Shown piece by piece: positions 9,633 through 44,979 of a stretch of DNA of 64,000 nt. The position numbers and the translations under genes are program-made. Numbering within the stretch: the first letter of the stretch is position 1; each line of letters opens with the position of its first letter. The stretch covers positions 150,213 to 214,212 of the forward strand of contig JANNSJ010000058.1 in assembly GCA_031402435.1 (NCBI GenBank). Reading direction: 5' to 3'. This stretch comes from Bacteroidota bacterium. Lineage in GTDB: Bacteria; Bacteroidota; Ignavibacteria; UBA10030; UBA6906. A model generated the notes under the pieces. The model was not told where the DNA came from and searched no databases. It worked only from the letters and a program-made list of their open reading frames with translations.

Positions 9633-10070
9633 CTACCCATCTGTATGTGGATGCTGGTCGGGGTGGTCGATAAGCCAGTTTTTGTACCAGCTTAAATCAT
9701 AACACAACGCAAGCAAGTGTTGCAAAGAATCCGGGGTCATGCTCAGGTACGTGAATGAAAATTGCTGTCGTGTTGCTGCCGGGGCGTCTTGGAGTAACGC
9801 GCGCAACAGCGCCGTTGCCCTGTCGATAGCCTCGGTAAACTCGCGGGAAAGCTTCTCAAACCCATCTCCGTCGTTGCCGATGCGCGTCATGATACCCAAT
9901 GTCTTTGAAGCGAACTTTGCAAGAAAGCTGAGCTTCTCCAGGGCTTCATGCTGTTTGTTCGCTGTAGAAAGCTCAATCAGAATACCGAGATCATTCCGGC
10001 GCGTAAGCTTGTATTGCGAGAGAAGGTCGAGGGATGTCAGAAGTTCCACTGTTGATTTACGGAGTTGCAT
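9633..10070 (-). CDS. Hypothetical alpha-helical protein
   Basis: 145 aa from ATG 10070 (MQLRKSTVELL); this start avoids overlap with the divergent kinase. Confidence 0.65.
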   Translation of the reverse strand: MQLRKSTVELLTSLDLLSQYKLTRRNDLGILIELSTANKQHEALEKLSFLAKFASKTLGIMTRIGNDGDGFEKLSREFTEAIDRATALLRALLQDAPAATRQQFSFTYLSMTPDSLQHLLALCYDLSWYKNWLIDHPDQHPHTDG

Positions 10071-10280
10071 GGTGCTATTACGTTGAGGCGAGAAGTGTTT
10101 GAACTGGCCATAAGACTGTGTAACCGCCATAATATAGAAGAAGCCGGATGTACATACAACATCCTGGAACTTTTGAATGGGATCCATGTCTTTACTGTGG
10201 TAGAGTTGCTTCGTTGCTTCTTCTGCAACCAATGGGTAACTTTGGATGAAATGCACAAGGTACAATACATCAATCAGGCT

Positions 10281-11867
10281 ATGGATCTGTTCCAGCGACT
10301 ACCGTTATCGAAAAAGATATTGCTCGGTATTCTGCCGCTGTTCCTTCTCTTCATCTCGGTGAGTGTGGTACTCCAGAATCATTTTCAGGAACAGGAAATG
10401 ATGGAGCAGGCTCAGGCGTCGGCTCACACCTATGCCGATATCATCAAGGAATCTCTCGTCAGCATGATGGTGAATAACCTGGAGGTGGACAACAGTTTTC
10501 TTGAACGCCTGAATGTGTTGCAGCAATTCGACACCGTTCATATTCTCGTCAACGATCTTCACGTGCGCGATGAACTCCTGACCCCAAAACGTATTCAACG
10601 GATCGAAACAAAGCTCAAAACACTCCAACCGCACGACTCTCTGGAGCAAAAGGTATTGGTGTCTGGGCAGCCTTTGTTCATTCGCAACGGTGATCATTTT
10701 CGCGGCGTCATTCCATTTACCGCAACCGAAGTGTGTCAGAAGTGTCACGCCGTTCCTATAGGCTATACACTCGGTGCCACGGATTTGCACATTTCTCTTG
10801 AACGGATTTCCCGGGTGGCGGCGGGAAACTGGAAACGGTCATTTATTATCTTTCTTGTCTTCACCGGACTGGTCATCGCCTTTGCAACATTCATGTTCAC
10901 GCGCTATGTATCGACACCGATTGAGCAATTGGTCGTTGCGACACGAGAGATCAGCAGGGGTAACCTGGAGTATACGATCAGCGCGGGTGAAGCAGATACC
11001 CACGTTTCCTCCTCGCACGATGAGCTGACGTTTCTTGGCCGCATGTTCGACTCAATGAGGGAGTCGCTGAGAGAGAAGATCAACCAGCTTGATCATGCCA
11101 ATGCAAATCTCTCGGAACGAAACAAGGAGGTCGAAGATGCGCTGCTGAAGTTGAAGCAGGCCCAGGAGGAGCTTGTGCGCAGTGAGCGGCTCGCGATTAC
11201 AGGCAAAATGACCGCACAACTCTCCCATGAAATCAACAACCCTATCCACAACATCCAGAGCCTCCTCGAGTCTTCGTTGCGAAAGGTGAATGGAAACCAG
11301 CAAGTGCAAGGCCTGATCGGTGTAGCGTTGGAAGAGGTCTCCCGCATGGCACAGTTGACGCGACAGATGCTGGACTTCTACCGTGGGTCCGTAGTGGATA
11401 TACCCCACGAGCTCGTGGACATGCGCAGCCTGCTATCTGAGGTGACAAGGATGAACGAGGAATCCCTTGCAAAGAAACATATCACCATCGCGCTGAATAT
11501 GCCCTCATCTCTCCCGTTGATTGAAGGGTCCCCGGATAAGTTGAAGCAAGTATTTCTTAACCTGATACTGAATGCTCGAGATGCCATGCCGAACGGAGGG
11601 ACGATTGCCGTCGGAGCCCATGCTGCGCGCGGGAGATTGGCTATTGATGTCCATGATTCCGGCATCGGTATTCCGCCGGAAAACATGGGGAGAATCTTCG
11701 ATGCATTTTTCACAACAAAGAAGGAGGTCAGCGGCGTAGGGCTGGGGTTGTCAGTGACATACGGTATTATTCAGCAACATAAGGGATCCATTGAGGTAAC
11801 GAGTGTGGCGGGAGAGGGAACGACATTCACAATTCAATTGCCAACAGTTGGTGAAACCCATGAGTGA
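10281..11867 (+). CDS. Sensor histidine kinase with periplasmic heme-c (CxxCH) sensor domain (DUF3365/Tll0287-like), HAMP, HisKA, HATPase
   Basis: TM1 after MDLFQRLPLSKK; periplasmic EVCQKCHA; TM2; H-box LSHEINNP; NLILNARDAM; DSGIGI; GVGLGL. Confidence 0.92.
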   Translation: MDLFQRLPLSKKILLGILPLFLLFISVSVVLQNHFQEQEMMEQAQASAHTYADIIKESLVSMMVNNLEVDNSFLERLNVLQQFDTVHILVNDLHVRDELLTPKRIQRIETKLKTLQPHDSLEQKVLVSGQPLFIRNGDHFRGVIPFTATEVCQKCHAVPIGYTLGATDLHISLERISRVAAGNWKRSFIIFLVFTGLVIAFATFMFTRYVSTPIEQLVVATREISRGNLEYTISAGEADTHVSSSHDELTFLGRMFDSMRESLREKINQLDHANANLSERNKEVEDALLKLKQAQEELVRSERLAITGKMTAQLSHEINNPIHNIQSLLESSLRKVNGNQQVQGLIGVALEEVSRMAQLTRQMLDFYRGSVVDIPHELVDMRSLLSEVTRMNEESLAKKHITIALNMPSSLPLIEGSPDKLKQVFLNLILNARDAMPNGGTIAVGAHAARGRLAIDVHDSGIGIPPENMGRIFDAFFTTKKEVSGVGLGLSVTYGIIQQHKGSIEVTSVAGEGTTFTIQLPTVGETHE

Positions 11868-33737: not shown

Positions 33738-35000
33738 CTATGCCGACTGTTTCCGCTCCTCATAACTGTAAAGCGGCTCGGTCTTGTGTAGCACCGAGTC
33801 GCGTGTAATTGTGCAACCGGAGACCTTTGCTCGGTCGGGGAGGTTGTACATGATATCCAGCATTACCTCTTCAATGATCGATCGCAGTGCCCGTGCGCCG
33901 GTGCCGCGTGCGATTGCCCTCAACACAATTTCCCGTAACGCCCCATCTTCAAATTCGAGGTCTACACCTTCCATTCTGAACAGCTTGTTGTATTGCTTGA
34001 TGATGGCATTCTTCGGCTGCGTGAGAATGTTCAGTAGAGCGTCCTCACTCAGCGAGTGAAGTGGTGCAACAAGCGGCAATCTGCCAACGAACTCAGGGAT
34101 GAGTCCGAACTTCACGAGATCGTCCGGCTGAACGAGGGGTAGAAATGAATCTGCGGTTTCTTCTTTTTTACTACGGACATCGGCTCCGAAGCCCATCGGG
34201 TTCTGGTTCACCCGCCGCGCAATGATCTTCTCGAGTCCATCGAATGCGCCGCCGCAAATAAAGAGAATGTTCTTCGTGTTGAGATTGATCAGGCTCTGCT
34301 CGGGGTGCTTGCGTCCGCCCTTTGGAGGAACGCCGGCGAGTGTGCCTTCCAGGATTTTAAGCAACGCCTGCTGCACGCCTTCACCGGAGACGTCACGGGT
34401 AATGGATGCGCTATCGCTCTTGCGTGCAATCTTGTCAATCTCATCAATGTACACGATGCCGCGCTCAGCCTTCTCGATATTGTATTCGGCATTCTGCAGA
34501 AGATGGACGAGAATCGTTTCAACGTCATCACCAACGTAACCGGCTTCGGTCAGCGTTGTTGCATCAGCGATGGCGAACGGAAGGTCGAGAATCTTCGCCA
34601 GCGTTTGAGCAAGAAGGGTCTTGCCTGTTCCGGTCGGGCCAATAAGCAGGATGTTGGTCTTCTCAATCTCTACATCATCAATATCATAGAGCCGATCCTT
34701 GGCGTCGATGCGCTTGTAGTGGTTGTACACTGCAACGGCCAGGCTTTTCTTCGCCTGTTCCTGTCCGATGACGTATTCATCGAGGGCGTTCTTGATTTGA
34801 ATTGGTGTGAGTGTTGCCTTGGGGCCACGTCGGGTCGAGAACGCAGCAAGGTTGTTCCTGATAATATCGACGGAGCTGGATACGCAGATGTCGCAGATGT
34901 AGACATCCGGTCCGGCAATGATGCTCTGGACTTCTTCAGGAGTTCTTCCACAGAATGAACAGTGGATTTTCTCGCCGCCTCTCGACTTGGTTGGTGACAT
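33738..35000 (-). CDS. clpX: ATP-dependent Clp protease ATP-binding subunit ClpX
   Basis: CSFCG...ICDIC zinc finger, [29 protein letters not shown]. Confidence 0.98.
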
Positions 35001-35018
35001 GTCGTTTCGCCCCGCTGG

Positions 35019-35636
35019 TTACTTTTTAGGTTCGTCGGCTTTCTTGGTGAACACGTTGTCAATCAGGCCGTATGTTTTTGCATCTTCGGAAGACATGTAG
35101 CGGTCGCGGTCCGTGTCTCTTTCCAGTTGCTCGACAGGCTTGTTGCAATGTTTGGCAAGGATCTGGTTCAGTCGTTTCTTCGTGAGGAGAATCTCCTCGG
35201 CCTGAATGCTGATATCCGACGCCGTGCCCTGCACTCCGCCCCACGGCTGATGAATCATGATGCGTGCATTCGGAAGCGCCGCCCGTTTGCCTGCTGCACC
35301 GCCGGCGAGCAATACTGCGCCCATGCTTGCCGCAAGTCCGATACACGTGGTTGCTACGTCCGGCCTAATGTACTGCATGGTATCATAAATTGCCAGCCCT
35401 GCGGAAACACTGCCGCCCGGGCTGTTCACATAGACGTTGATATCCTTGTCGGGGTCTTCCGACTGGAGGAAGAGAAGCTGTGCGATCGTCACGCTTGCGA
35501 CACCGTCATCGATCGGCGTTCCGATGAACACGATGCGCTCCTTCAGCAAGCGCGAGAAGATATCGTATGCGCGCTCGCCCCGGCCCGTTTGCTCGACAAC
35601 CATTGGTACCAATTGGTTCACAATTTTAGAGCTCAT
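35019..35636 (-). CDS. clpP: ATP-dependent Clp protease proteolytic subunit
   Basis: [22 protein letters not shown] (catalytic Ser), MIHQP (His). Confidence 0.98.
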
Positions 35637-35676
35637 TGTATCCTTTCCTTTTCAGTATAGATGATAAGAATTCCTT

Positions 35677-36954
35677 CTACGCCTCGCGTTGTTCCTCAAT
35701 CACCTTGTCGGTAATCTTCACGTTGGATTTCAGAAATGCCATGATCTTGTCGGTGAGAAGACGCTCGTTACCGGCATTGGACATTTTGTAATACTCAATC
35801 AGCCGTTCTTTGTCCACACCGATGCGAACTGCGTCGGCTTCTGCAAGCTTTTCGAGTTCCTCTTCGGTCACCGTGATCTTCTCGACCTCTGTTATACATT
35901 GCTTCAGCAATGTCCACTTAGCTTGCCAGATGGCATACTCGCGGCTCTCTTCGCGGAACTTCTTCTCGTCGAAGTTCTTCGGAAGTTTCTTGTCGCGTGC
36001 CTTGTTCTTGACATCATCGACAAACGCGTCGAGAAAGGAGTTCACCATCGACTCCGGCACGGGAAACTCGTGCATCTTCACCAATTCCTGTGCGATTGCG
36101 TCGTCTACTTTTCGCTCGGCCTGTTCTGACCAATAGCGCTCGATATCCTGGCGCATATTCTGCTTGAATTCCTCCGGCGTGGAGAATTTCTCCGCAGAAA
36201 TCTTCTTCACCAACTCCGCATCGAATTCCGGAAGGTTGAGCTTCTCGATCTTCTTGACGGCGATGGAAAGGTTGACCGCGTGGGAATGGTCGCCGTGTTT
36301 CGATTCAAACGTCGCGCGGTACGTTTCTCCGACGGTAGCGGATTTCAACGCGTCCTTGATTTCCTTTATCAGGGTTGGATCAGACAGGGTGAAGCGCGTG
36401 TCCACAGATTTTTTGCCGATGACCGGCGCCCCGGTCTCATCGAGTTCATGGGCATCGGCGATGACGACATGTTCTTCATCGCTGACCGACTGCACTTCAG
36501 TGCTCGTACTATTTGATTGCCTGAGGTGATGGAGTTCGGCGTCGATCTCGGCATCCGCCACCTTGTGAACCGGCCTCTCAACATGGATGTTCTTGAACTT
36601 GCCTAACTCGATTTCCGGTTTCACGTCGTACTGGATTTTGAAGCGGAAATGGTCGCCACGCTTGAAGTCCATATCGACCATTGATGGCGTTCCGAGCGGC
36701 GTGATATTCTTCTCGATCATCGCCTTGCGGTAGACTTCGTTCGCCACTTCATCGAGTGCTTCATGTTCAATGGCATCCCCGTACAGTTTCTTCACGAGGT
36801 CCATGGGGGCTTTTCCCTTGCGGAATCCCTTCAGTTCAACTTTTGGTTGGTATTTCTGGTAGGCGGCGGTAAAATGCGGCTGCAACTCATCATTCGACAC
36901 ACTGATATCAGCTTCGTGGCGAACTTCGGAGATGGGATTGATGGTAATTTCCAA
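35677..36954 (-). CDS. tig: Trigger factor
   Basis: GFRKGKAP ribosome-binding motif; tig-clpP-clpX synteny; TTG start at 36954 with AAGGA RBS. Confidence 0.93.
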   Translation of the reverse strand: MEITINPISEVRHEADISVSNDELQPHFTAAYQKYQPKVELKGFRKGKAPMDLVKKLYGDAIEHEALDEVANEVYRKAMIEKNITPLGTPSMVDMDFKRGDHFRFKIQYDVKPEIELGKFKNIHVERPVHKVADAEIDAELHHLRQSNSTSTEVQSVSDEEHVVIADAHELDETGAPVIGKKSVDTRFTLSDPTLIKEIKDALKSATVGETYRATFESKHGDHSHAVNLSIAVKKIEKLNLPEFDAELVKKISAEKFSTPEEFKQNMRQDIERYWSEQAERKVDDAIAQELVKMHEFPVPESMVNSFLDAFVDDVKNKARDKKLPKNFDEKKFREESREYAIWQAKWTLLKQCITEVEKITVTEEELEKLAEADAVRIGVDKERLIEYYKMSNAGNERLLTDKIMAFLKSNVKITDKVIEEQREA

Positions 36955-36983
36955 CGTCTCGCTTCCTTTTTGATGATTGTTGA

Positions 36984-37034
36984 GTGGGCATAGAGGGATT
37001 TGAACCCCCGCGAGCCTCCTCACTAGATCCTAAG
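36984..37034 (-). repeat. Displaced 3' half of tRNA-Leu(TAG) (att direct repeat)
   Basis: 51 bp, 47/51 identical to 42935..42985; runs from the anticodon loop to the acceptor 3' strand. Confidence 0.9.
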
Positions 37035-37050
37035 AATATTGCTAGAGAGG

Positions 37051-37080
37051 AATATACCATTTCCAATTCAGTTTCAGCAA
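37051..37080 (-). promoter_or_regulatory. Candidate outward-facing promoter at the island edge reading into tig
   Basis: Minus strand TTGCTG-N18-TATATT with extended -10 (TGnTATATT). Confidence 0.45.
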
Positions 37081-37416
37081 CTTTTCCTTGTCCAAAATCT
37101 GTTTTCGGCGCCAATCAACTGATCGGTGGTAAGATTTTGGTAAGGTTTGTATCCAGCAGTGATGTTCTGCAATTGCTATTGGAAGATTATGGTAGGAATA
37201 TTCTTCATGAATTTCCAGTGGCAGCACCATGTAATAGAGTCATGTTCCCAACCTTCTCTATACACCCCGATCTTGGAATTCTGCTCCTGTGCCATGTCCC
37301 TCGCATCTCAAGGTCACAAACAGCCGCCCTACTCCTCAAGGGGATGAAACCCGCTATGACAGGCAACTGGGGCCGGATCGAACTGTTTGTCGTGGCTGCC
37401 GGCAACGAGGCGGGTA

Positions 37417-37445
37417 TTGACAAGACTGGTTTATTCCTTTACTTT
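37417..37445 (+). promoter_or_regulatory. Candidate sigma70 promoter of the island ECF gene
   Basis: TTGACA-N17-TACTTT ending 44 nt before ATG 37490. Confidence 0.55.
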
Positions 37446-37489
37446 CAATCAGTTGAATAATTGTTCTTGCACCAATCTCTAAACCACTC

Positions 37490-38059
37490 ATGCCCGAACG
37501 CCCGCCACTAGACATCACTCTACTGTTGGAAGATTGCATCAACGGGAGAAAAGGGGCCGTTGATAAGCTCCTTCCTCTGGTTTATGGAGAGCTGAAAAGA
37601 ATAGCGTCGAAGTATCTACGCGATGAATATCGTCAGCATACATTCCAAACCACTGAGCTGGTTCATGAAGCCTACATGAAACTTATCGGCGGAGAGAATA
37701 TCAATTGGCAGAACAGGGCGCATTTTTTTGGGATAGCAGCAAACTCGATGCGCCAGATTCTCGTCGATTATGCCCGAAAGCGCAATTCTCAGAAAAGGGG
37801 AGAAGGTCAAACCATTCTCTCACTCAATGAAGCTTTGGGGATTGCGGTTCAATCAGACGAAGACATACTCGCACTTGATGAAGCTCTGAAAAAGTTGGAA
37901 TCATTTGACGCGGGATTAAACAAGATTGTTGAGTTGAGATTCTTTGCGGGACTCAATGTCGAAGAAACGGCAAGTGTACTCGGTAGTTCTGCTTCTACTG
38001 TAAAGCGAGAGTGGAGTTTAGCAAGAGCCTGGTTGTTCCGGGAACTGGGAAAGGAATAG
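37490..38059 (+). CDS. ECF sigma factor, TIGR02999 / ECF43-like (kinase-associated)
   Basis: LLPLVYGELKRIA, FQTTELVHEAYMKL, WQNRAHFFGIAANSMRQILVDYAR, VELRFFAGL, STVKREWSLARAWL. Confidence 0.92.
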   Translation: MPERPPLDITLLLEDCINGRKGAVDKLLPLVYGELKRIASKYLRDEYRQHTFQTTELVHEAYMKLIGGENINWQNRAHFFGIAANSMRQILVDYARKRNSQKRGEGQTILSLNEALGIAVQSDEDILALDEALKKLESFDAGLNKIVELRFFAGLNVEETASVLGSSASTVKREWSLARAWLFRELGKE

Positions 38060-38220
38060 GGCGATTCCCACCGAATAATGAATATATGAGACTTTCCCTG
38101 AATAACCCTTTGACGAGAAAGCCCTCCTTACAAAGTGATTTGACCCCGTTTTTCAAATTCTACGCATGTATTTGTAGAACGGTGCTCACCAAACTCAAAT
38201 CATTCATCAAAGGAGGCTTT

Positions 38221-40176
38221 ATGAAAGTGTCAACACGTATTGTATTTATTGCCTGTTCCCTTTTCGTTCAATCATTGACAGCTACGTCGCAGTTTCTTCA
38301 GGAAAGGAAACTCATTGGCGGGCCTGCCGTCGGGTCGGCTGTATATCAAGGTTATTCAGTTTCACTTTCAGCCGATGGGAATACAGCGATGATGGGTGGG
38401 ATAGGTGACAATGCGAATGCCGGCGCAGCATTTGTATTCACCCGAAGCAGTTCCAGTGGCGCGTGGGTTCAGCAAGGAAATAAACTTGTCGGCACAGGCG
38501 CTGTTGGGAGCGCAAGCCAGGGCTTTGCTGTCGCCCTTTCTGCCGATGGGAATACGGCTATCGTGGGTGGATTGGGTGACAATACTTTCGCCGGCGCAGC
38601 GTGGGTCTTTACCAGAAGCGGCGGCTCATGGAGTCAACAAGGAAACAAGCTCGTCGGTACAGGAGCAACCGGTGTGGCACAACAAGGGAATGCTGTTGCA
38701 CTCTCAGCCGATGGGAATACGGCCATCATCGGTGGATATCGTGACAACACTTTTGCAGGTGCAGCATGGGTTTTTACGCGAAGCGGCAGCGTCTGGAGTC
38801 AGCAAGGGAACAAACTTGTCGCCACAGATGCCGTCGGGTTCGCGAGGCAAGGGATTTCTGTTGACCTTTCATCTGATGGCAATACCGCTATCGTTGGCGG
38901 GCATACGGACAATGCAAACGCGGGAGCAGCGTGGATATATACGCGTATTGGCGGATCGTGGTCACTGCAACGTAAGCTCGTTGGCACAGGCGCTGTAGGG
39001 AGTGCACGACAGGGTCGCTCGGTTGCCCTTTCAGACGACGGGAATACTGCTCTCGTTGGTGGATATGAAGACGATGCTTCGGCGGGTGCTGTTTGGGTAT
39101 TCACGCGAAGTGGCGGCGTGTGGGCTCAGCAAGGAAACAAATTTCGCGGCACAGGCGCTGTCGGAAATGCAAGTCAAGGGCTTGCTGTCTCTCTTTCAGG
39201 CGATGGCAATACTGCTCTCGTTGGCGGCATTGATGACAACGCCTTCGCGGGCGCAGCGTGGATATTCACGCGCAGTGGCGGTGTGTGGTCTCAGTTAGGA
39301 AACAAACTCTTCGGCTCGGGCGCTGTCGGGAATGCAAACCAAGGCGGTGCTGTTGCCATTTCATCGAGCGGGAATAGGGTTATCGTTGGTGGGATAGCTG
39401 ACAATGCTAACTTTGGTGCTGCCTGGGTGTATTCGCGTGACGGCTCAACGTTCTCACGCACCAATCTGAACAAGTTTATTTTTGATAATCAACTCGTGTT
39501 TGATACGATTCAAGTTTCATCGAATTCCCCACTCGCCACAATTGTTCGCGATGTGGATGTGTCCGTTATTATCACTCATCCGAACGTCAGCGATTTGGAA
39601 ATCTCTCTTGTGCATCTCGGCGTTACAGATACACTGGTCTACCAAGTGGGAGGAACCGGCGATAACTTTTCCGGGACAGTGCTTGATGATTCTGCAGTAA
39701 CACCGATTGCAAACGGTGTAGCCCCATTTAGCGGTCGCTACATACCAACCAGACCGTTGGCTCAATTCAATTCGCTCGACGCTGCGGGTTCGTGGATCCT
39801 CCGTGTGTTTGATCGAGCAACAGGAAATACTGGAACGCTGAGCGGATGGTCTCTTACACTTGGCACTTCTGCCGGTCCGACATCTGTTGACCGGATTTCT
39901 CACGAAACGCCGGAGGGGTTTGTGTTAAAGCAGAACTATCCGAACCCTTTTAACCCGTCAACAACAATTAGTTTCTCGATTCCGCGTTCTGCGGCAGTGT
40001 CTCTAAAGGTGTTCGACCTTCTTGGCAAAGAAGTTGCGACGCTCGTACGCGAGGAGTTGAAGTCTGGAAGCTACGAAACAACCTTCGAGGGCAATGGGCT
40101 GTCGAGCGGCATGTATTTCTATCGTCTCGAAGCTGGCGGATTTGTTCAGACGAAAAAGCTTGTATTGCAGAAGTGA
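38221..40176 (+). CDS. T9SS-secreted protein: 7 FG-GAP-like repeats, proprotein-convertase P-domain, T9SS CTD
   Basis: AAAGGAGG RBS; seven ~55-aa repeats (VALSADGNTAIVGG..DN..AGAAWVFTRSGG.W.QQGNKL); ITHPNVSDLEISL...GSWILRVFDRATGNTGTLSGWSL; QNYPNPFNPSTTISF. Confidence 0.9.
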   Translation: MKVSTRIVFIACSLFVQSLTATSQFLQERKLIGGPAVGSAVYQGYSVSLSADGNTAMMGGIGDNANAGAAFVFTRSSSSGAWVQQGNKLVGTGAVGSASQGFAVALSADGNTAIVGGLGDNTFAGAAWVFTRSGGSWSQQGNKLVGTGATGVAQQGNAVALSADGNTAIIGGYRDNTFAGAAWVFTRSGSVWSQQGNKLVATDAVGFARQGISVDLSSDGNTAIVGGHTDNANAGAAWIYTRIGGSWSLQRKLVGTGAVGSARQGRSVALSDDGNTALVGGYEDDASAGAVWVFTRSGGVWAQQGNKFRGTGAVGNASQGLAVSLSGDGNTALVGGIDDNAFAGAAWIFTRSGGVWSQLGNKLFGSGAVGNANQGGAVAISSSGNRVIVGGIADNANFGAAWVYSRDGSTFSRTNLNKFIFDNQLVFDTIQVSSNSPLATIVRDVDVSVIITHPNVSDLEISLVHLGVTDTLVYQVGGTGDNFSGTVLDDSAVTPIANGVAPFSGRYIPTRPLAQFNSLDAAGSWILRVFDRATGNTGTLSGWSLTLGTSAGPTSVDRISHETPEGFVLKQNYPNPFNPSTTISFSIPRSAAVSLKVFDLLGKEVATLVREELKSGSYETTFEGNGLSSGMYFYRLEAGGFVQTKKLVLQK

Positions 40177-40226
40177 TTAATCGTGTAGCGCAAATGCAGT
40201 TTCTTATCATTCTCGATTGAGCGACA

Positions 40227-42794
40227 ATGGATGAACGAACCTGGTCTGATGTAAAGACGATATTCTTTCACGCAGTTGATTTAGGGCCCGGCGAGAGGGA
40301 AGAGTACCTGAAGGAACATTGCAAAGGTGCCGCGTTGCAACAGGAACTCCATTCCCTCCTTGCCGCGCACGATAAGTCCGAGAAGTTTCTCGAAGGTTCA
40401 AGCATTCCCACCAGCTCGGCAACTGACAATCACAATGTCTTCGTCGGCAAGATGTTTGGCAAGTATACGATTGAAAAACTCATCGCCAGGGGCGGCATGG
40501 GGCTGGTGTATCTTGCTTTCCGTGATGATGCAGTGAAGCAGAAGGCTGCGGTAAAAATAATCAACCCGGGGCTTGCTTCCGGCATTGTGATAAAGAGGTT
40601 TCAGAATGAACGGCAGACGCTCGCCAATCTCAATCATCCGAATATATCGCGTCTGCTTGACGGTGGAATCACAGAAGATGGCATCCAGTTCTTCGTGATG
40701 GAATACATCGATGGTATTCCCATCGATGAGTACTGTGACAATAACAAACTCAACATCAGGGAGCGGCTGAGACTCTTTCTGAAAGCTGCTTCGGTCGTTC
40801 AGTTTGCACATCACAACCTCGTCGTTCATCGAGACCTCAAGCCGCGCAATATTCTTATCACGAAGGACGGAGAACCAAAACTCCTCGATTTCGGAATCGC
40901 CAAGATCTTGACCCCCGAAGGTGAGCAGCAGGAAACATTAACCCAGAAGGGAACATGGAATCTTACTCCTGAGTTTGCAAGTCCTGAACAGGTCAAGGGA
41001 GAAGCAATCACTACCGCAAGTGATGTGTATTCTCTTGGTATAGTTCTCTACAGGCTTTTGACCGGACATACTCCGTATAGAATAACAAGCCCGCTGCATT
41101 CCGATATTCGAGCGATCGTCACGGAAACAGAACCCCGCAAGCCCAGCGAAATCATCTTTCAGCCAATCGAATCAGAAGGCGGCGATACCGTTACAATCAA
41201 TCCTGAATCAGTGGCAATGGCAAGAGAAGACAGTATCGGGAAACTTCAAAAGACTCTGGCTGGTGAGCTTGATACCATTGTTGCGATGGCAATCCGAAAG
41301 GAACCCGAAAGGAGATATCCCTCAGTTGATCACTTCGCTGAAGATATCAGAAGATATTTGGACAACAAGCCCGTGTATGCGCACAAGGATACGTTCGGAT
41401 ATAGAAGCAGGAAATTCATAAGGAGGAACAAGACTGCTGCAGGATTCATCTCGACAATATCGCTGGCAGTCCTGTTGGGCATAGCTGGAATCGTCTGGCA
41501 ATCTCAACTGACTGCACGGGAAAGAGACATCGCAAAGCTTGAAGCGGAAAAGGCAAACAGGATAAAATCTCTGTTGCTGGAAATGATCTCGTCTCCCGAT
41601 CCGAGAAAGGACGGCCGCAAAGTCACGGTGATGGATGTTCTTCACGGAGCCTCGCATCGTATGTCGGTTGAATTGGCCGGTCAGCCACAGATTGAAACCG
41701 AGATGCGGTCAATGCTCGGGAATACGTATCAAAACCTTGGCATCTATGATTCAGCCGAGACTGAATTCTTCAAAGCCCATGAACTGACAAAGAAACTTTT
41801 TGGTGAACGTAGCAAAGAGACAGCGATGAGTCTCCAGTCTCTCGGGCTTGTGTACCAATACCGGGGCGATTTGGAAAAGACAGAACAATACTTCAAGCAG
41901 TCCCTTGAGATGATGAAATCAGTAGAAACAAAACCCTCATTCGAAACTGCACTTATGCTGGATGCATACGGCACACTCATGTCTGAAAAGGGGGACTATA
42001 AAAAAGCGGAAGAACTCACCATGGAAGCCTTAAAGATTGGCGAGGCAATACGAGGGGCTGACGATCCGAAGGTTGCGGAGTTCAAGAACAACCTGGCAAC
42101 CTCGTACAACTATCTGAAAAAACCGGATAAAGCTGACTCGTTGTACAGAGAAAGCCTGCAGGTGTTTCGAAAGCACTACGGCAACTCACATTTGCTGGTT
42201 TCGAGCAGCCTGAACAATCTCGCGTTCATTAACATTTTCAAAAAGGATCATTCAGGTGCTTTGCCTCTGCTTGTGGAATCGTTGAATATCAAACGGGCAA
42301 TTCTCGGTGAAGACCACCCCGATCTTATTCTCGCATATTCGAATGTCGGCAGTACATACTTTAACATTCACCAGTACGAAAAAGCCGGAGAATTCATGAA
42401 GGCTTCCGTTGATGTCGGTCTCAAGAATTATGATGAAGACAATATCAGCCTGAGTCGCTCATACATGTGGTACGGGAGAATCTTCGATGCAAGGGGAGGG
42501 CTTGACAGTGCAATTTTCTTTTTGAGGAAGGCGTATCACATTCGAAAGAGAGAACTGGGTGCTAACAATAACATAACGCTGGCAACGCAGAATCAATTGG
42601 GCAAGAGCCTTCTCCACAAACGAGATTTTGTTGATGCTGAAAAACACCTGCTTGAGAGTTACAAAGGGTTTAGTGATGTTGCAGGAAAGGATGATGACTC
42701 CACCCAGAAGGCTCTCATCGCATTGGTTGATCTTTACAAAGCGTGGAGGAAAAAGGACAAAGAAGATTACTATGCTGCGTTGATTCAGAAGTAA
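40227..42794 (+). CDS. Hanks-type Ser/Thr protein kinase with TM segment and extracytoplasmic TPR domain
   Basis: ARGGMGLVY, AVK, HRDLKPRNIL, DFGIAK, TPEFASPEQ, DVYSLG; TM around AVLLGIAGIVW; TPR-like repeats after it. Confidence 0.95.
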   Translation: MDERTWSDVKTIFFHAVDLGPGEREEYLKEHCKGAALQQELHSLLAAHDKSEKFLEGSSIPTSSATDNHNVFVGKMFGKYTIEKLIARGGMGLVYLAFRDDAVKQKAAVKIINPGLASGIVIKRFQNERQTLANLNHPNISRLLDGGITEDGIQFFVMEYIDGIPIDEYCDNNKLNIRERLRLFLKAASVVQFAHHNLVVHRDLKPRNILITKDGEPKLLDFGIAKILTPEGEQQETLTQKGTWNLTPEFASPEQVKGEAITTASDVYSLGIVLYRLLTGHTPYRITSPLHSDIRAIVTETEPRKPSEIIFQPIESEGGDTVTINPESVAMAREDSIGKLQKTLAGELDTIVAMAIRKEPERRYPSVDHFAEDIRRYLDNKPVYAHKDTFGYRSRKFIRRNKTAAGFISTISLAVLLGIAGIVWQSQLTARERDIAKLEAEKANRIKSLLLEMISSPDPRKDGRKVTVMDVLHGASHRMSVELAGQPQIETEMRSMLGNTYQNLGIYDSAETEFFKAHELTKKLFGERSKETAMSLQSLGLVYQYRGDLEKTEQYFKQSLEMMKSVETKPSFETALMLDAYGTLMSEKGDYKKAEELTMEALKIGEAIRGADDPKVAEFKNNLATSYNYLKKPDKADSLYRESLQVFRKHYGNSHLLVSSSLNNLAFINIFKKDHSGALPLLVESLNIKRAILGEDHPDLILAYSNVGSTYFNIHQYEKAGEFMKASVDVGLKNYDEDNISLSRSYMWYGRIFDARGGLDSAIFFLRKAYHIRKRELGANNNITLATQNQLGKSLLHKRDFVDAEKHLLESYKGFSDVAGKDDDSTQKALIALVDLYKAWRKKDKEDYYAALIQK

Positions 42795-42935
42795 TCTGGA
42801 CGTGGATTTGCAAACGTGCAGCAACAGCAACTTGACTGAAAGAGGAGTGCGGTGGAGGGGCTCAATATTGCCGGGAACGATTGTATGAATAGGTAAGATT
42901 CGGGGAACCCGGGAAAATGATACAGAAAACCTAAG

Positions 42936-43017
42936 TGGGCATAGAGGGACTTGAACCCCCACGAGTTTCCTCACTAGATCCTAAGTCTAGCGCGTCTGCC
43001 AATTTCGCCATATGCCC
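42936..43017 (-). tRNA. trnL: tRNA-Leu (anticodon TAG)
   Basis: Reverse complement GGGCATATGGCGAAATTGGCAGACGCGCTAGACTTAGGATCTAGTGAGGAAACTCGTGGGGGTTCAAGTCCCTCTATGCCCA; long variable arm; loop CTTAGGA. Confidence 0.97.
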
Positions 43018-43103: not shown

Positions 43104-44840
43104 CTACTTGAGTGGCAGCGTCAGTCGTATTGTGGTGCCGACATTTTCAACCGACTCTATCTCGATTTGACCACCATGGTCGTCGATAATTTTCTTCACG
43201 ATCGCGAGACCAAGTCCTGTGCCGTGCCGTTTTCCATGGGTGAAAAATGGTTCGAACACTCTTGCCTTGATGGAATCCGGAATTCCTTTCCCGGTATCGG
43301 TGATACTAATCTGAATACCATTACCACTCTGTTCCGTGCGGATGGTAAGTGTTCCGCCATCGGGCATCGCATCGGCTGCATTGCCGGCGAGATTGTAGAG
43401 CACGCGCTCCATTTTTGCCAGGTCAAGTGTACACATGCCCGTGTACTGAAAATCCCGGACGATGGCGATGCGTTTTTCCCGGAAGTCTGCCTCAATGAAC
43501 TTCAATGACGCATCGATAATGTCAATCAATTTGACGGATTCGATAGTCATCTCACTCACTCCGCGGGAGTAATCGAGAATCTCCTGCGTCATCTTCACAA
43601 ACCGATCCACCTGGTGCATCATCTCATCTGCATATTGAGATACTTCGGCGTCCGGGACCTTGCGTTTGATAAGCTGGGCATACAAACGCACGATGCTCAT
43701 CGGGTTTTTGATATCATGGATGATGGTTCCCGCCATGCGACCGACCATGGAGAGTTGTTCACTCTTCATCATTTCCTGTGCAAGGCGTGCATTCTCCAGC
43801 GCAATGGAGGCATGGATTGACAGTGCGTCGATGAAGGATGCATCGTCAGCAGTGAACGCCCCCTGTTTCTTGTTGAGGAATTGAAATACGCCGACAATCT
43901 CATTCTCTTTGTTCTTGAGCGGCATGCAGAGCACATTGTGAGTATGGTATCCGCTTTTTTTGTCAATTTCCGGGTTGAACCTGGGGTCGCCATAAGCGTC
44001 AGGGATGTTCACGGTCTCGCCGGTCTTTGCAACATACCCAGCGAGGCCCTTGCCAACGGGCAAGCGGATTTCCGTTATGTCTTTTCCCTGGGCGGCCTTG
44101 GCCCAAAGTTCTCCTCGTTCTTTGTCGAGAAGATAAAGCGTCCCCCGCTCCGCCTGAATGCTGTTCGACGCCGCGTTGAGAATAAGCACCAGCAACTTGT
44201 CAATGTCGATCGTGGAATTGACGATCTTGCTCGCTTCGATGAGCAGGCTCAGGCGGTCGAGCTTGGCTTTCGAGGAGATGACATTCCGCTCCAGTTCGCT
44301 GACAAATGTCTGGTCAATTGTGCGGAGACGAAGGGCGAGGTTCTTCAGCAGGTTGAACGTGAAAGCGTCACTCTCCGCGATGAGTGATCGAAATTCACTG
44401 GAACTGAAGAACACGATGGTGCAGGGATCCACTGCTTCGGCGCGAGCCGACCGGGAGAGTCCGTCCAATATGGAAAGCTCCCCAAAAAAATCCCCCTCGT
44501 GCAGCACTGCAAGGAGCGATTCAATACCGTATTTGGTATATTTCTTTATGCGAACCCGGCCGCCGAGAAGCAGGTACAGGTAGCGTCCCTTGGTCGACTC
44601 GTCGAAGATAATGTCACCGGCTTTGTATTGGCGCACCACAAGTTTGGGGATGATGGACTTCAAACTTTTCGGGTTGACGCCGGAGAAGAGTACGTTCCGC
44701 TTGATTGCCTGAAGGGTGTTGCCGTTCGGTTGTATAAGGCGCCGGGATGGCTTGGTTGGTGGTTTTCGTACCGGAGATGACCGTTTTGCAGCGGATCGTT
44801 TTCGCTTGGCGATTGCGTTGCCGCTTTTTTTCTTCTTCAT
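43104..44840 (-). CDS. Cytoplasmic histidine kinase: cNMP-binding domain, GAF, HisKA, HATPase
   Basis: cNMP motifs LLGGRVRI, GDFFGELSIL, RSARAEA; GAF (GKGLAGYV, DAYGDPRFNPEIDKKSGY, LCMPL); HDIKNP; GTGLGL. Start placed at MKKKK (44840). Confidence 0.9.
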   Translation of the reverse strand: MKKKKSGNAIAKRKRSAAKRSSPVRKPPTKPSRRLIQPNGNTLQAIKRNVLFSGVNPKSLKSIIPKLVVRQYKAGDIIFDESTKGRYLYLLLGGRVRIKKYTKYGIESLLAVLHEGDFFGELSILDGLSRSARAEAVDPCTIVFFSSSEFRSLIAESDAFTFNLLKNLALRLRTIDQTFVSELERNVISSKAKLDRLSLLIEASKIVNSTIDIDKLLVLILNAASNSIQAERGTLYLLDKERGELWAKAAQGKDITEIRLPVGKGLAGYVAKTGETVNIPDAYGDPRFNPEIDKKSGYHTHNVLCMPLKNKENEIVGVFQFLNKKQGAFTADDASFIDALSIHASIALENARLAQEMMKSEQLSMVGRMAGTIIHDIKNPMSIVRLYAQLIKRKVPDAEVSQYADEMMHQVDRFVKMTQEILDYSRGVSEMTIESVKLIDIIDASLKFIEADFREKRIAIVRDFQYTGMCTLDLAKMERVLYNLAGNAADAMPDGGTLTIRTEQSGNGIQISITDTGKGIPDSIKARVFEPFFTHGKRHGTGLGLAIVKKIIDDHGGQIEIESVENVGTTIRLTLPLK

Positions 44841-44979
44841 AACAAGTAATGCGCGTTCGTTGGTACACCAGCATTTGCCCGGATCATCAACCGCGGTTCT
44901 TCGGTGATGTCGGCGCAACAAGTACATTGCATTTGCGTGATATAATAGGTAAATCACTTTCCAGAGTCAACCAGACCAG

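What the first reader, a model, noticed from the sequence alone, without database searches (positions are those of the whole stretch)
37490..42794. Phosphorylation-activated ECF43-type sigma / Hanks kinase module with a secreted cargo gene between the two partners
Seen: the ECF has QTTELVHEAY in region 2.2 in place of DAED. The kinase has the N-terminal helical extension (TWSDVKTIFFHAVDL...LHSLL), an intact catalytic core, a TM segment and external TPRs. There is no anti-sigma. Established: ECF43 sigmas such as Vibrio parahaemolyticus EcfP are activated by kinase (PknT) phosphorylation of a Thr in this deviant motif. Inference: a self-contained, horizontally moved sense-and-secrete unit in which the TPR domain detects a ligand and the phosphorylated sigma induces the sandwiched T9SS protein.
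Basis: partly seen in the sequence, partly recalled or inferred. Interest (0 to 1): 0.65.

Follow-up and report, generated by a model that had tools for sequence, protein, structure and literature searches.

The report
Mobile kinase-switched sigma module with secreted cargo
A 5.9-kb inserted block carries a sigma factor of the known kinase-activated type, its membrane sensor kinase and, between them, a secreted propeller protein with its own conserved promoter, giving a compact, testable signal-to-secretion circuit that moves between bacteria.

Summary
Gene 37490-38059 is an ECF sigma matching PF07638 and TIGR02999, with QTTE where other ECFs have DAED. Gene 40227-42794 is an intact Hanks kinase with a PknS-like N-terminal extension, one membrane segment and TPRs beyond it. 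Gene 38221-40176 encodes a signal peptide, a seven-bladed integrin-like propeller, a P-domain and a T9SS sorting tail. No anti-sigma gene is present.

New evidence:
1. The block is an insertion. In 18 of 23 relatives tRNA-Leu(TAG) sits just upstream of tig. Here it lies 5.9 kb away, and a 52-nt tRNA fragment abuts tig.
2. The same three genes (75-81% protein identity) occur in another genus, in a different context, where tig is only 55% identical.
3. All 12 loci whose sigma is at least 73% identical hold one to three T9SS-tail genes between sigma and kinase, with varying passenger domains. All sigmas at 66% or less are directly followed by the kinase.
4. Every cargo gene is preceded by TTGAyC-N17-CGCATG (38140-38179). 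This element is unique in this genome. A motif-only metagenome scan recovered only such modules.
5. The sigma gene has a housekeeping-type promoter.

Verdict: a known ECF43/kinase switch in a new variant, with a private promoter and an exchangeable T9SS cargo slot. Phosphorylation, promoter use and the signal remain untested.

The parts
36983..37034 (-). 52-nt fragment of the 3' half of tRNA-Leu (from the anticodon loop to the 3' end). This is the distal att-like repeat, abutting the start of tig.
   Evidence: Direct repeat D4, 92% identical to 42934-42985. It aligns with the tRNA-Leu of relatives from the anticodon loop onward and differs at 4 positions. ARAGORN finds no full tRNA here.
37035..37489 (+). 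Non-coding left arm of the insert. It holds a housekeeping-type promoter for the sigma gene: TTGACA at 37417-37422, a 17-nt spacer, and TACTTT at 37440-37445.
   Evidence: It is unique in the genome, and its ORFs have no Pfam match, so no integrase remnant was found. The TTGACA-N17-TAyTTT element is conserved upstream of 15 of 16 related sigma genes.
37490..38059 (+). ECF43-type sigma factor, 189 aa. QTTE occupies the sigma-2.2 position (residues 53-56), and T55 is the predicted phospho-acceptor.
   Evidence: literature.
38140..38179 (+). Conserved promoter-like element in front of the cargo gene. TTGACC is at 38140-38145, followed by a 17-nt spacer, CGCATG at 38163-38168, then TATTTGTAGAA. 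A conserved 5' leader and ribosome-binding site follow, up to the ATG at 38221.
   Evidence: There are 14 copies in front of 14 cargo genes in 12 loci. The element occurs once in the own genome and in 2 of 277 genomes of the order. A motif-only metagenome scan gave 4 copies, each in front of a T9SS-tail gene.
38221..40176 (+). Cargo protein of 651 aa: signal peptide, seven-bladed FG-GAP (integrin-alpha-like) beta-propeller, P-domain-like beta-sandwich, and T9SS type A C-terminal sorting domain.
   Evidence: In the AF2 model, blocks covering residues 31-400 mostly have mean pLDDT above 85. The top Foldseek matches are integrin alpha propellers, E 1e-17 to 3e-19. The orthologue in G181 is 81% identical.
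40227..42794 (+). Receptor Hanks-type Ser/Thr kinase of 855 aa: PknS-like N-terminal helical extension (about residues 1-70), catalytic domain, one membrane segment (about 405-427), and a TPR domain predicted to be periplasmic.
42935..43017 (-). Intact tRNA-Leu(TAG). Its 3' 52 nt (42934-42985) form the proximal att-like repeat.
   Evidence: Its 3' half is identical to that of a same-genus relative.

Best explanation
This is a 5.9-kb horizontally acquired module, inserted into the 3' half of tRNA-Leu(TAG) upstream of tig. It encodes a complete signal-to-output circuit of the ECF43/Hanks-kinase class.

Proposed mechanism:
1. The sigma gene is transcribed from a housekeeping-type promoter (TTGACA-N17-TACTTT), so a pool of inactive sigma is present (inferred).
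2. The membrane kinase has a cytoplasmic catalytic domain with a PknS-like N-terminal extension and a periplasmic TPR domain. It responds to an unknown envelope or external cue and phosphorylates the sigma at T55 of the QTTE motif, and perhaps at a linker Ser/Thr such as T114 (inferred from EcfP/PknT and EcfK/PknS).
3. Phosphorylation supplies the negative charge needed to bind the RNA polymerase beta' clamp (established for EcfP; inferred here).
4. The holoenzyme then uses the private promoter TTGACC-N17-CGCATG at 38140-38168 to transcribe the gene for a T9SS-exported integrin-like propeller protein. With no terminator and only 50 nt between the genes, it probably also transcribes the kinase gene downstream, which would give positive feedback (inferred).

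Shown here by comparison: the insertion, the module's transfer between genera, the strict link between this sigma clade and intercalated T9SS cargo genes, and the one-promoter-per-cargo rule.

In relatives the slot between sigma and kinase holds one to three different T9SS proteins, while the kinase's sensor domain stays conserved. The switch is therefore generic and the output exchangeable.
For: Class membership:
- PF07638 and TIGR02999 score above their cut-offs.
- QTTE occupies the DAED position and is conserved in 117 of 120 homologues.
- The kinase aligns with PknS (9EED) over residues 5-379, including the N-terminal extension. PknS has the same architecture: an 83-aa extension, kinase domain, membrane segment and periplasmic TPRs.

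Insertion and transfer:
- 52-nt tRNA repeats flank the block.
- tRNA-Leu lies directly upstream of tig in 18 of 23 relatives.
- The sigma is present in only 9 of 41 relatives.
- The G181 module is 77%, 81% and 75.5% identical (sigma, cargo, kinase), against 55% for tig, and sits in another context.
- An independent Logan contig spans tig, the insert and the tRNA.

Cargo link:
- All 12 sigmas at 73% identity or more have T9SS-tail genes between sigma and kinase. Every sigma at 66% or less for which a same-strand downstream kinase was found has it within about 400 nt, apart from three loci with 1.0-8 kb gaps that hold no T9SS-tail gene or motif.
- About 5% of this genome's genes carry the tail, with at least 150 ORFs, so this is not chance.

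Promoter:
- 14 of 14 cargo genes carry the element about 80 nt upstream, and loci with two cargo genes carry two copies.
- The element is unique in the genome.
- The motif-only scan found 4 of 4 copies in front of T9SS-tail genes. On two of the three contigs a sigma lies upstream and a kinase downstream.
- In G007, a 59% identical cargo homologue lies divergent from another sigma-kinase pair and has TTGCCC-N17-CGCATG upstream.

Other support:
- The sigma gene's own promoter is of a different, housekeeping type, conserved in 15 of 16 related sigma genes.
- T9SS machinery is present: SprA scores 855 bits.
Against: - No experiment and no RNA data: only DNA runs hold this sequence. The transcription start, the dependence on this sigma and the phosphorylation are all unproven.
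- The element's second block, CGCATG, is not a textbook ECF -10 sequence. I could not obtain a published ECF43 promoter motif for comparison, because Iyer et al. 2020 is not held.
- E56 keeps one acidic residue. In EcfK (QATE) the T51A variant remains functional, so the sigma may have basal activity.
- In one relative (L036) a hairpin followed by a T run, read by eye, follows the cargo gene. Co-transcription of the kinase gene is therefore not general.
- No integrase is present, and the relative G181 has no flanking repeats. The mobilisation mechanism is unknown.
Confidence: 0.7

Rival explanations
1. The sigma-kinase pair is a normal ECF43 switch, but the cargo gene is an unrelated passenger. 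On this view the conserved 40-nt element is the site of another regulator or a housekeeping promoter variant, and the sigma's real targets lie elsewhere.
For: The second block, CGCATG, is not a typical ECF -10 sequence. The first block, TTGACC, resembles the housekeeping -35 sequence seen in front of the sigma gene. There are no expression data.
Against: The element occurs only inside such modules. It is found once in this genome, in 2 of 277 genomes of the order, and in 4 of 4 metagenome copies. It travels with the sigma to new genomic sites in the window and in G181. It is absent from loci whose sigma is 66% identical or less. A different sigma-kinase pair with a divergently placed cargo homologue has the same two-block layout. 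No other regulator gene is part of the 5.9-kb insert.
Confidence: 0.15
2. The three genes are a vertically inherited chromosomal locus. On this view the tRNA fragment is a remnant of a duplicated tRNA gene, not a sign of insertion.
For: There is no integrase. GC content (0.46-0.55) is close to that of the flanks (about 0.52).
Against: In 18 of 23 relatives, including same-genus genomes, tRNA-Leu lies directly in front of tig. The repeat starts exactly in the anticodon loop and runs to the tRNA 3' end. The sigma is absent from two of three same-genus genomes. The module proteins are 75-81% identical to those of a genus whose tig is 55% identical.
Confidence: 0.05
3. The sigma is constitutively active because E56 is retained, and the kinase has other substrates. 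For example, it could act on the T9SS or on the cargo's export rather than on the sigma.
For: EcfK, with QATE, tolerates T51A. Hanks kinases are often multi-substrate (general knowledge).
Against: The first and third DAED positions remain uncharged (Q53, T55). The Thr is conserved in 117 of 120 homologues. Kinase and sigma are co-inherited in all complete loci examined. The kinase carries the N-terminal extension found in PknS, the cognate kinase of an ECF43 sigma.
Confidence: 0.1

Closest known systems
EcfK / PknS of Xanthomonas citri (ECF43 sigma plus TPR receptor Hanks kinase controlling the anti-amoeba T6SS; PDB 9EED; PMC13147305)
   Same: - The kinase architecture matches: an N-terminal extension of about 80 aa, a Hanks domain, one membrane segment and periplasmic TPRs.
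- Our kinase residues 5-379 align with PknS residues 8-364 (E 4e-41).
- The sigma keeps an acidic residue at the fourth motif position (QATE in EcfK, QTTE here).
- There is no anti-sigma.
- In both, the output is a secretion-related function encoded beside the pair.
   Different: - The output here is one T9SS-exported propeller protein rather than a T6SS gene cluster.
- The cargo lies between sigma and kinase, with a private promoter.
- The host is a different phylum (Ignavibacteriota-type).
- The module is a small mobile insert.
EcfP (VP0055) / PknT (VP0057) of Vibrio parahaemolyticus (Iyer et al. 2020, as summarised in PMC8999054 and PMC8103513)
   Same: - The sigma-2.2 DAED motif is replaced (STTA in EcfP, QTTE here), with the second Thr as the phospho-acceptor.
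- The sigma is intrinsically inactive until phosphorylated.
- The locus tags suggest that one gene (VP0056) also lies between the Vibrio partners. This is an inference from tag numbers and was not checked.
   Different: - EcfP has no acidic residue left in the motif, whereas E56 is kept here.
- EcfP's regulon confers polymyxin resistance; here the only candidate target is the adjacent T9SS cargo gene.
- I found no mention of an exchangeable-cargo arrangement or a private promoter in the reviews and papers I could read.
tRNA-targeted genomic islands
   Same: The insert sits in the 3' half of a tRNA gene, starting at the anticodon loop. The tRNA is reconstituted and a displaced partial copy forms a direct repeat. 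Relatives have the empty site.
   Different: There is no integrase or other mobility gene, and the insert is only 5.9 kb. The second copy of the module, in G181, has no tRNA and no flanking repeats.
PorX/PorY-SigP control of T9SS genes in Porphyromonas gingivalis (from memory, not checked here)
   Same: An ECF sigma is linked to type IX secretion in the same superphylum.
   Different: SigP is not ECF43. It is controlled through a two-component system and drives T9SS machinery genes, not a single cargo gene. No Hanks kinase is involved.

Membership tests
ECF43 sigma factors (kinase-activated ECFs) | ECF architecture (sigma-2 plus sigma-4 only), matching the family models used for this group (PF07638 / TIGR02999) | tested here: met
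   PF07638 scores 183.5 bits (cut-off 21.1) and TIGR02999 scores 207 bits (cut-off 126) over residues 8-186. That these models correspond to ECF43 is my recollection, supported by the motif and the gene context.
ECF43 sigma factors (kinase-activated ECFs) | The DAED motif of sigma-2.2 is replaced by uncharged residues with a conserved Thr (consensus QTTA, second Thr phosphorylated) | tested here: met
   QTTE occupies residues 53-56, directly before LVHEAY. An acidic fourth position occurs in 15.8% of ECF43 members, including EcfK. QTTE is present in 117 of 120 homologues.
ECF43 sigma factors (kinase-activated ECFs) | A co-encoded Hanks-type Ser/Thr kinase and no anti-sigma factor | tested here: met
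   The kinase lies 2.2 kb downstream on the same strand. No other ORF in the insert has a Pfam match. For nearly all of the 100-odd related sigmas examined whose contig shows a same-strand kinase downstream, that kinase is directly adjacent or separated only by cargo genes.
ECF43 sigma factors (kinase-activated ECFs) | Assignment by the ECF Hub group HMMs | not testable with these tools
   The ECF Hub models are not in the libraries offered.
ECF43 sigma factors (kinase-activated ECFs) | Phosphorylation of the sigma-2.2 Thr by the cognate kinase is required for activity | not testable with these tools
   This needs a kinase assay with phospho-MS and reporter assays.
PknS/PknT-type receptor kinases | An intact Hanks catalytic core | tested here: met
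   Pkinase E 1.7e-40. HRDLKPRN (201), DFG (221) and SPE (252) are present, along with a GGMGLVY glycine loop and an AAVK lysine.
PknS/PknT-type receptor kinases | An N-terminal helical extension of about 80 aa before the kinase domain | tested here: met
   Residues 5-99 align with PknS residues 8-105, E 1.5e-4 for this piece alone. PknS has an 83-aa extension predicted as 3-4 helices.
PknS/PknT-type receptor kinases | A single membrane segment with an extracytoplasmic TPR domain | tested here: met
   There is one hydrophobic stretch, about residues 405-427, preceded by KFIRRNK. TPR_12 matches at E 2.5e-49 and TPR_10 at 5.8e-34, over residues 476-790. The topology is read by eye; no membrane predictor was run.
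T9SS type A cargo proteins | An N-terminal signal peptide plus a C-terminal TIGR04183/PF18962 sorting domain, in a genome with T9SS machinery | tested here: met
   TIGR04183 scores 47 bits (cut-off 23) at residues 573-650. The N-terminus MKVSTRIVFIACSLFVQSLTATSQ looks like a signal peptide (read by eye). SprA scores 855 bits, and the genome has at least 150 tail-bearing ORFs.
tRNA-integrated genomic islands | A direct repeat of the tRNA 3' part at both ends, and an empty site in relatives | tested here: met
   The 52-nt repeat is 92% identical. In 18 of 23 relatives tRNA-Leu(TAG) lies directly upstream of tig.
tRNA-integrated genomic islands | An integrase gene next to the tRNA | tested here: not met
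   The insert holds only the three module genes. The arms (455 nt and 140 nt) have no Pfam match and no similarity elsewhere in the genome.

The most novel reading that the evidence does not exclude
In Ignavibacteriales, one clade of kinase-gated ECF43 sigma factors may have become a portable private switch with an exchangeable output slot. T9SS surface or secreted proteins of unrelated folds (integrin-like propellers, BNR/sortilin propellers, an S8 protease, and 850-aa proteins with no Pfam match other than the tail) are plugged in between sigma and kinase. Each comes behind its own copy of a promoter-plus-leader cassette (TTGAyC-N17-CGCATG ... AAATCATTTAAT ... AAGGAG). The whole unit moves between genera. 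The kinase's periplasmic TPR domain stays 56-65% identical across cargo types. It would therefore sense something common to all of them, such as an environmental cue or the state of type IX secretion, rather than the cargo's own ligand.
Probability: 0.35. Interest if true: 0.7.

Novelty: new variant of a known kind. Interest (0 to 1): 0.55.

Why it matters
- ECF43/kinase pairs are numerous, but only two have been studied, and the papers I could read give little on their target promoters and regulons. This module offers a minimal, closed circuit: one sensor kinase, one sigma, one candidate promoter that is unique in the genome, and one output gene. All of it lies on 5.9 kb that could be moved as a block into a laboratory host.
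- It links kinase-switched sigma factors to type IX secretion cargo. It also suggests how surface proteins can be placed under a private switch and exchanged or transferred as cassettes.
- If confirmed, the promoter would give a defined recognition sequence for an ECF43 subclade. It would also provide an orthogonal, phosphorylation-gated expression switch for Bacteroidota-like hosts.

Tried and rejected
- Integrase or other mobility remnants in the insert arms: none found by Pfam or by blastn/tblastx against the own genome.
- Flanking repeats or a tRNA at the second copy of the module in G181: none at the module's boundaries.
- Expression data: only DNA metagenome runs hold the sequence. No RNA runs exist, so no transcription start could be read. 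No reads or contigs show the empty site in the same samples.
- An RNA-element reading of the conserved leader: no Rfam match, and folding is no better than shuffled sequence (z -0.17).
- The original EcfP/PknT paper (Iyer 2020) is not held. I therefore could not compare the element with any published EcfP promoter motif, and the Vibrio gene order rests on locus-tag numbers only.
- A strict two-block search (TTGNCC-N16-18-CGCATG) in about 90 other ECF43 loci gave only the G007 locus and one likely chance hit. The motif is thus specific to this subclade, not to ECF43 in general.
- The first tig translation used a wrong frame. The first script assumed one file per locus.
- The sigma has no solved relative by sequence in the PDB.
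- Base composition does not mark the insert clearly.
Full report
**1. What is there**

The stretch 37490-42794 holds three same-strand genes.

The first gene, 37490-38059 (189 aa), matches PF07638 (E 4.7e-54) and TIGR02999 (E 2.1e-61), both far above their cut-offs. Residues 53-62 read QTTELVHEAY, so QTTE stands where most ECF sigmas have DAED.

The literature held here describes ECF43 sigmas as lacking DAED. Their consensus is QTTA, the second Thr is conserved in 88% of members, and that Thr is the one phosphorylated in EcfP (STTA) and EcfK (QATE, T51). 15.8% of members keep an acidic residue at the fourth position (PMC8999054; PMC13147305). T55 is therefore the predicted acceptor, and E56 makes this sigma resemble EcfK more than EcfP. 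QTTE is present in 117 of the 120 closest homologues.

The third gene, 40227-42794 (855 aa), encodes a Hanks kinase. The Pkinase domain matches at E 1.7e-40, and HRDLKPRN, DFG and SPE are present. It has one hydrophobic segment (about residues 405-427) and a long TPR region (TPR_12, E 2.5e-49).

Its residues 5-379 align with residues 8-364 of PknS of X. citri (PDB 9EED, E 4e-41). The first 100 residues alone still find PknS (E 1.5e-4). PknS is described as having an 83-aa N-terminal extension, a kinase domain, a membrane segment and periplasmic TPRs. The architecture is therefore the same.

The middle gene most likely starts at 38221, behind AAGGAGG. It encodes 651 aa with these parts:
- a signal-peptide-like N-terminus;
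- seven 55-aa FG-GAP repeats, seen as a 165-nt DNA period;
- a P-domain;
- a T9SS type A sorting tail, TIGR04183, 47 bits against a cut-off of 23.

An AlphaFold2 model built on 14 homologues gives a confident seven-bladed propeller: over residues 31-400, 10-residue blocks mostly have mean pLDDT above 85. Its best structural matches are integrin alpha propellers, with Foldseek E values of 1e-17 to 3e-19. The genome encodes SprA (855 bits) and at least 150 tail-bearing ORFs, so it has a working-looking T9SS. No ORF with anti-sigma features is present.

**2. The block is an insertion**

Just left of the sigma gene, at 36983-37034, lies a 52-nt copy (92% identical) of the 3' half of the tRNA-Leu(TAG) gene. 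The intact gene sits just right of the kinase gene, at 42935-43017 on the minus strand. The repeat runs from the anticodon loop to the 3' end of the tRNA.

I fetched the tig locus from relatives. In 18 of 23, a tRNA-Leu(TAG) lies about 50-100 nt upstream of tig on the same strand; in one same-genus genome the gap is about 560 nt. In the window the tRNA is separated from tig by the 5.9-kb block, and only the fragment abuts tig.

The intact tRNA's 3' half is identical to that of a same-genus genome. The fragment differs at four positions. The arms of the insert (455 and 140 nt) are unique in the genome and have no Pfam match, so no integrase remains. A Logan contig from a public freshwater-sediment run spans tig, the insert and the tRNA without a break, which argues against mis-assembly.

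**3. The module moves between genera**

The sigma is found in only 9 of 41 relatives, and in one of three other genomes of the genus, where identity is 55%.

A genome of another genus in the same family (G181) carries the same three genes in the same order. Identities are 77% for the sigma, 81% for the cargo and 75.5% for the kinase. There the module lies between phytoene-synthase/rhodanese genes and a hybrid histidine kinase, with no tRNA-Leu or tig nearby. Trigger factor of the two genomes is only 55% identical. Other genomes of that genus lack the module's promoter element.

**4. The sandwich is the rule for one sigma clade**

Among 80 loci from species-representative genomes, the kinase gene follows the sigma gene directly in about 65. 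I added loci from the large protein collection and tabulated more than 100 sigmas.

- All 12 sigmas at 73% identity or more to ours have a 2.1-6.3 kb gap before the kinase.
- Every sigma at 66% or less for which a same-strand downstream kinase was detected has it within about 400 nt, apart from three loci with gaps of 1.0, 2.6 and 8 kb that hold no T9SS-tail gene and no copy of the element.

The gaps of the high-identity clade hold one to three genes that all end in the T9SS tail but differ in their passenger parts. They include 845-853-aa proteins with no other Pfam match, BNR/sortilin-type propellers, 505-aa FG-GAP proteins, an S8 peptidase, and the FG-GAP/P-domain protein seen here. Since about 5% of genes in this genome bear the tail, this is not chance.

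Most of these loci lie downstream of carA-carB. They are followed by a second sigma-kinase pair without cargo (sigma about 65% identical, kinase about 39%). This suggests a tandem duplication followed by the insertion of cargo.

Across cargo types the kinase's catalytic domain is 76-84% identical to ours and its TPR domain 56-65%. The TPR domain of the second-pair kinase is only 27% identical. The sensor is therefore conserved while the output changes.

**5. A private promoter**

The window and the closest representative locus (L036) have different cargo genes but share a 40-nt element upstream of them: TTGACCCCGTTTTTCAAwTTCTACGCATGTAyTTGTAGAA.

- It occurs once in the 4.04-Mb genome, even allowing 7 mismatches in 28 positions.
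- It occurs in 2 of 277 genomes of the order, ours and G181.
- In the 12 module loci I found 14 copies. All are on the coding strand, and all but the G181 copy (207 nt upstream) lie about 75-110 nt upstream of a cargo start codon.
- Loci with two intact cargo genes (L128, L130) have two copies.
- None lies in front of a kinase gene.

TTGA and CGCATG are invariant. The spacing between TTGAyC and CGCATG is 17 nt in 13 of 14 copies. A conserved leader with a ribosome-binding site follows.

A scan of the metagenome collection with the motif alone returned three contigs with four copies. Each copy lies about 40-80 nt upstream of a T9SS-tail ORF as called by my script (one call probably starts too early). 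In two contigs the sigma is visible upstream and the kinase downstream.

A 59% identical homologue of the cargo lies divergent from another sigma-kinase pair in G007 (sigma 57% identical). It has TTGCCC-N17-CGCATG in front of it.

The sigma genes themselves, of both pair types, carry a different, housekeeping-like element, TTGACA-N17-TAyTTT. It is present in 15 of 16 cases; in the window it lies at 37417-37445.

No terminator-like structure separates sigma, cargo and kinase in the window, and cargo and kinase are 50 nt apart. In L036 a hairpin followed by a run of T, read by eye, follows the cargo gene.

The leader matches no Rfam family and does not fold better than shuffled sequence.

**6. 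Mechanism proposed, and what is shown**

Shown by comparison:
- the insertion;
- the transfer between genera;
- the clade-specific intercalation of T9SS cargo genes;
- the one-element-per-cargo rule;
- the element's restriction to these modules.

Inferred from the two studied ECF43 systems:
- The sigma is made constitutively and is inactive.
- The kinase, on an unknown periplasmic cue, phosphorylates T55, and possibly a linker residue; KRGEGQT114 resembles the EcfK linker sites.
- This allows binding to the beta' clamp.

Inferred from anatomy:
- The holoenzyme uses TTGACC-N17-CGCATG to transcribe the cargo gene.
- In this genome it probably reads on into the kinase gene.

The cargo would be exported by the T9SS and displayed or released as an integrin-like binding protein. 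Its ligand is unknown.

**7. Comparison and novelty**

The pair passes every testable membership feature of ECF43/PknS-type systems. It should be filed there as a member.

In the papers I could search I found no description of three things: the clade-wide placement of T9SS cargo genes between the partners, their private promoter cassette, and the module's mobility. The Vibrio locus tags (VP0055, VP0057) hint that a gene between the partners is not unprecedented, but I could not check this.

Earlier notes of this scan describe the same theme in other genomes (e1-3699558, e1-2400284). They are unverified AI notes, but they suggest the pattern recurs. I rate the finding a new variant of a known kind and of moderate interest. 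Its value lies in being a closed, portable and directly testable circuit.

Noticed in passing
L036:10844-13984; L128:15405 onward; L126:15881 onward; L130:16117 onward; L133 (reverse strand) 9803-10372: In most relatives the cargo-bearing module is followed at once by a second ECF43 sigma-kinase pair without cargo. Its sigma is about 65% identical to ours and its kinase about 39%, with the TPR domain at 27%. This looks like a tandem duplication. The targets of the second pair are unknown.
   Followed up: partly
L132:141-5475 (same locus as L002, genome G007): A 59% identical homologue of the cargo lies back-to-back with an adjacent-type sigma-kinase pair. It has TTGCCC-N17-CGCATG in its upstream region. 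The sigma-cargo link therefore extends beyond the sandwich clade.
   Followed up: partly
L036:5700-5880: A run of about 170 nt, almost all C, lies between the sigma gene and the cargo promoter element in a long-read MAG. It is either an assembly artefact or a true homopolymer tract. The cargo ORF there also seems frameshifted.
   Followed up: no
L012:944-1500 (genome G002, same genus): The spacer between tRNA-Leu and tig is about 560 nt here, against about 50-100 nt in other relatives. It has no long ORF on the tRNA/tig strand. It may be a scar of another insertion at the same site.
   Followed up: no
window 38140-38179, in run X5: One contig of another freshwater-sediment metagenome matches only the 40-nt promoter element and diverges on both sides. 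The element therefore exists in further organisms with other flanks.
   Followed up: no
window 43104-44957 (-): Just beyond the tRNA lies a 617-aa sensor histidine kinase with cyclic-nucleotide-binding-like and GAF-like regions (read from the translation). No response regulator is next to it. It is not part of the insert.
   Followed up: no
window 33738-36951 (-): An ordinary tig-clpP-clpX operon. Its ancestral upstream neighbour, tRNA-Leu, was displaced by the insert, so tig's native upstream region is now the insert's left arm.
   Followed up: partly
L125, L126, L127 (gaps between sigma and kinase): Several cargo genes in long-read or metagenome assemblies are split into two or three ORFs. 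These are likely frameshift errors or decaying cargo copies. One array (L127) includes an S8 peptidase with a FlgD_ig domain but no detected tail.
   Followed up: no
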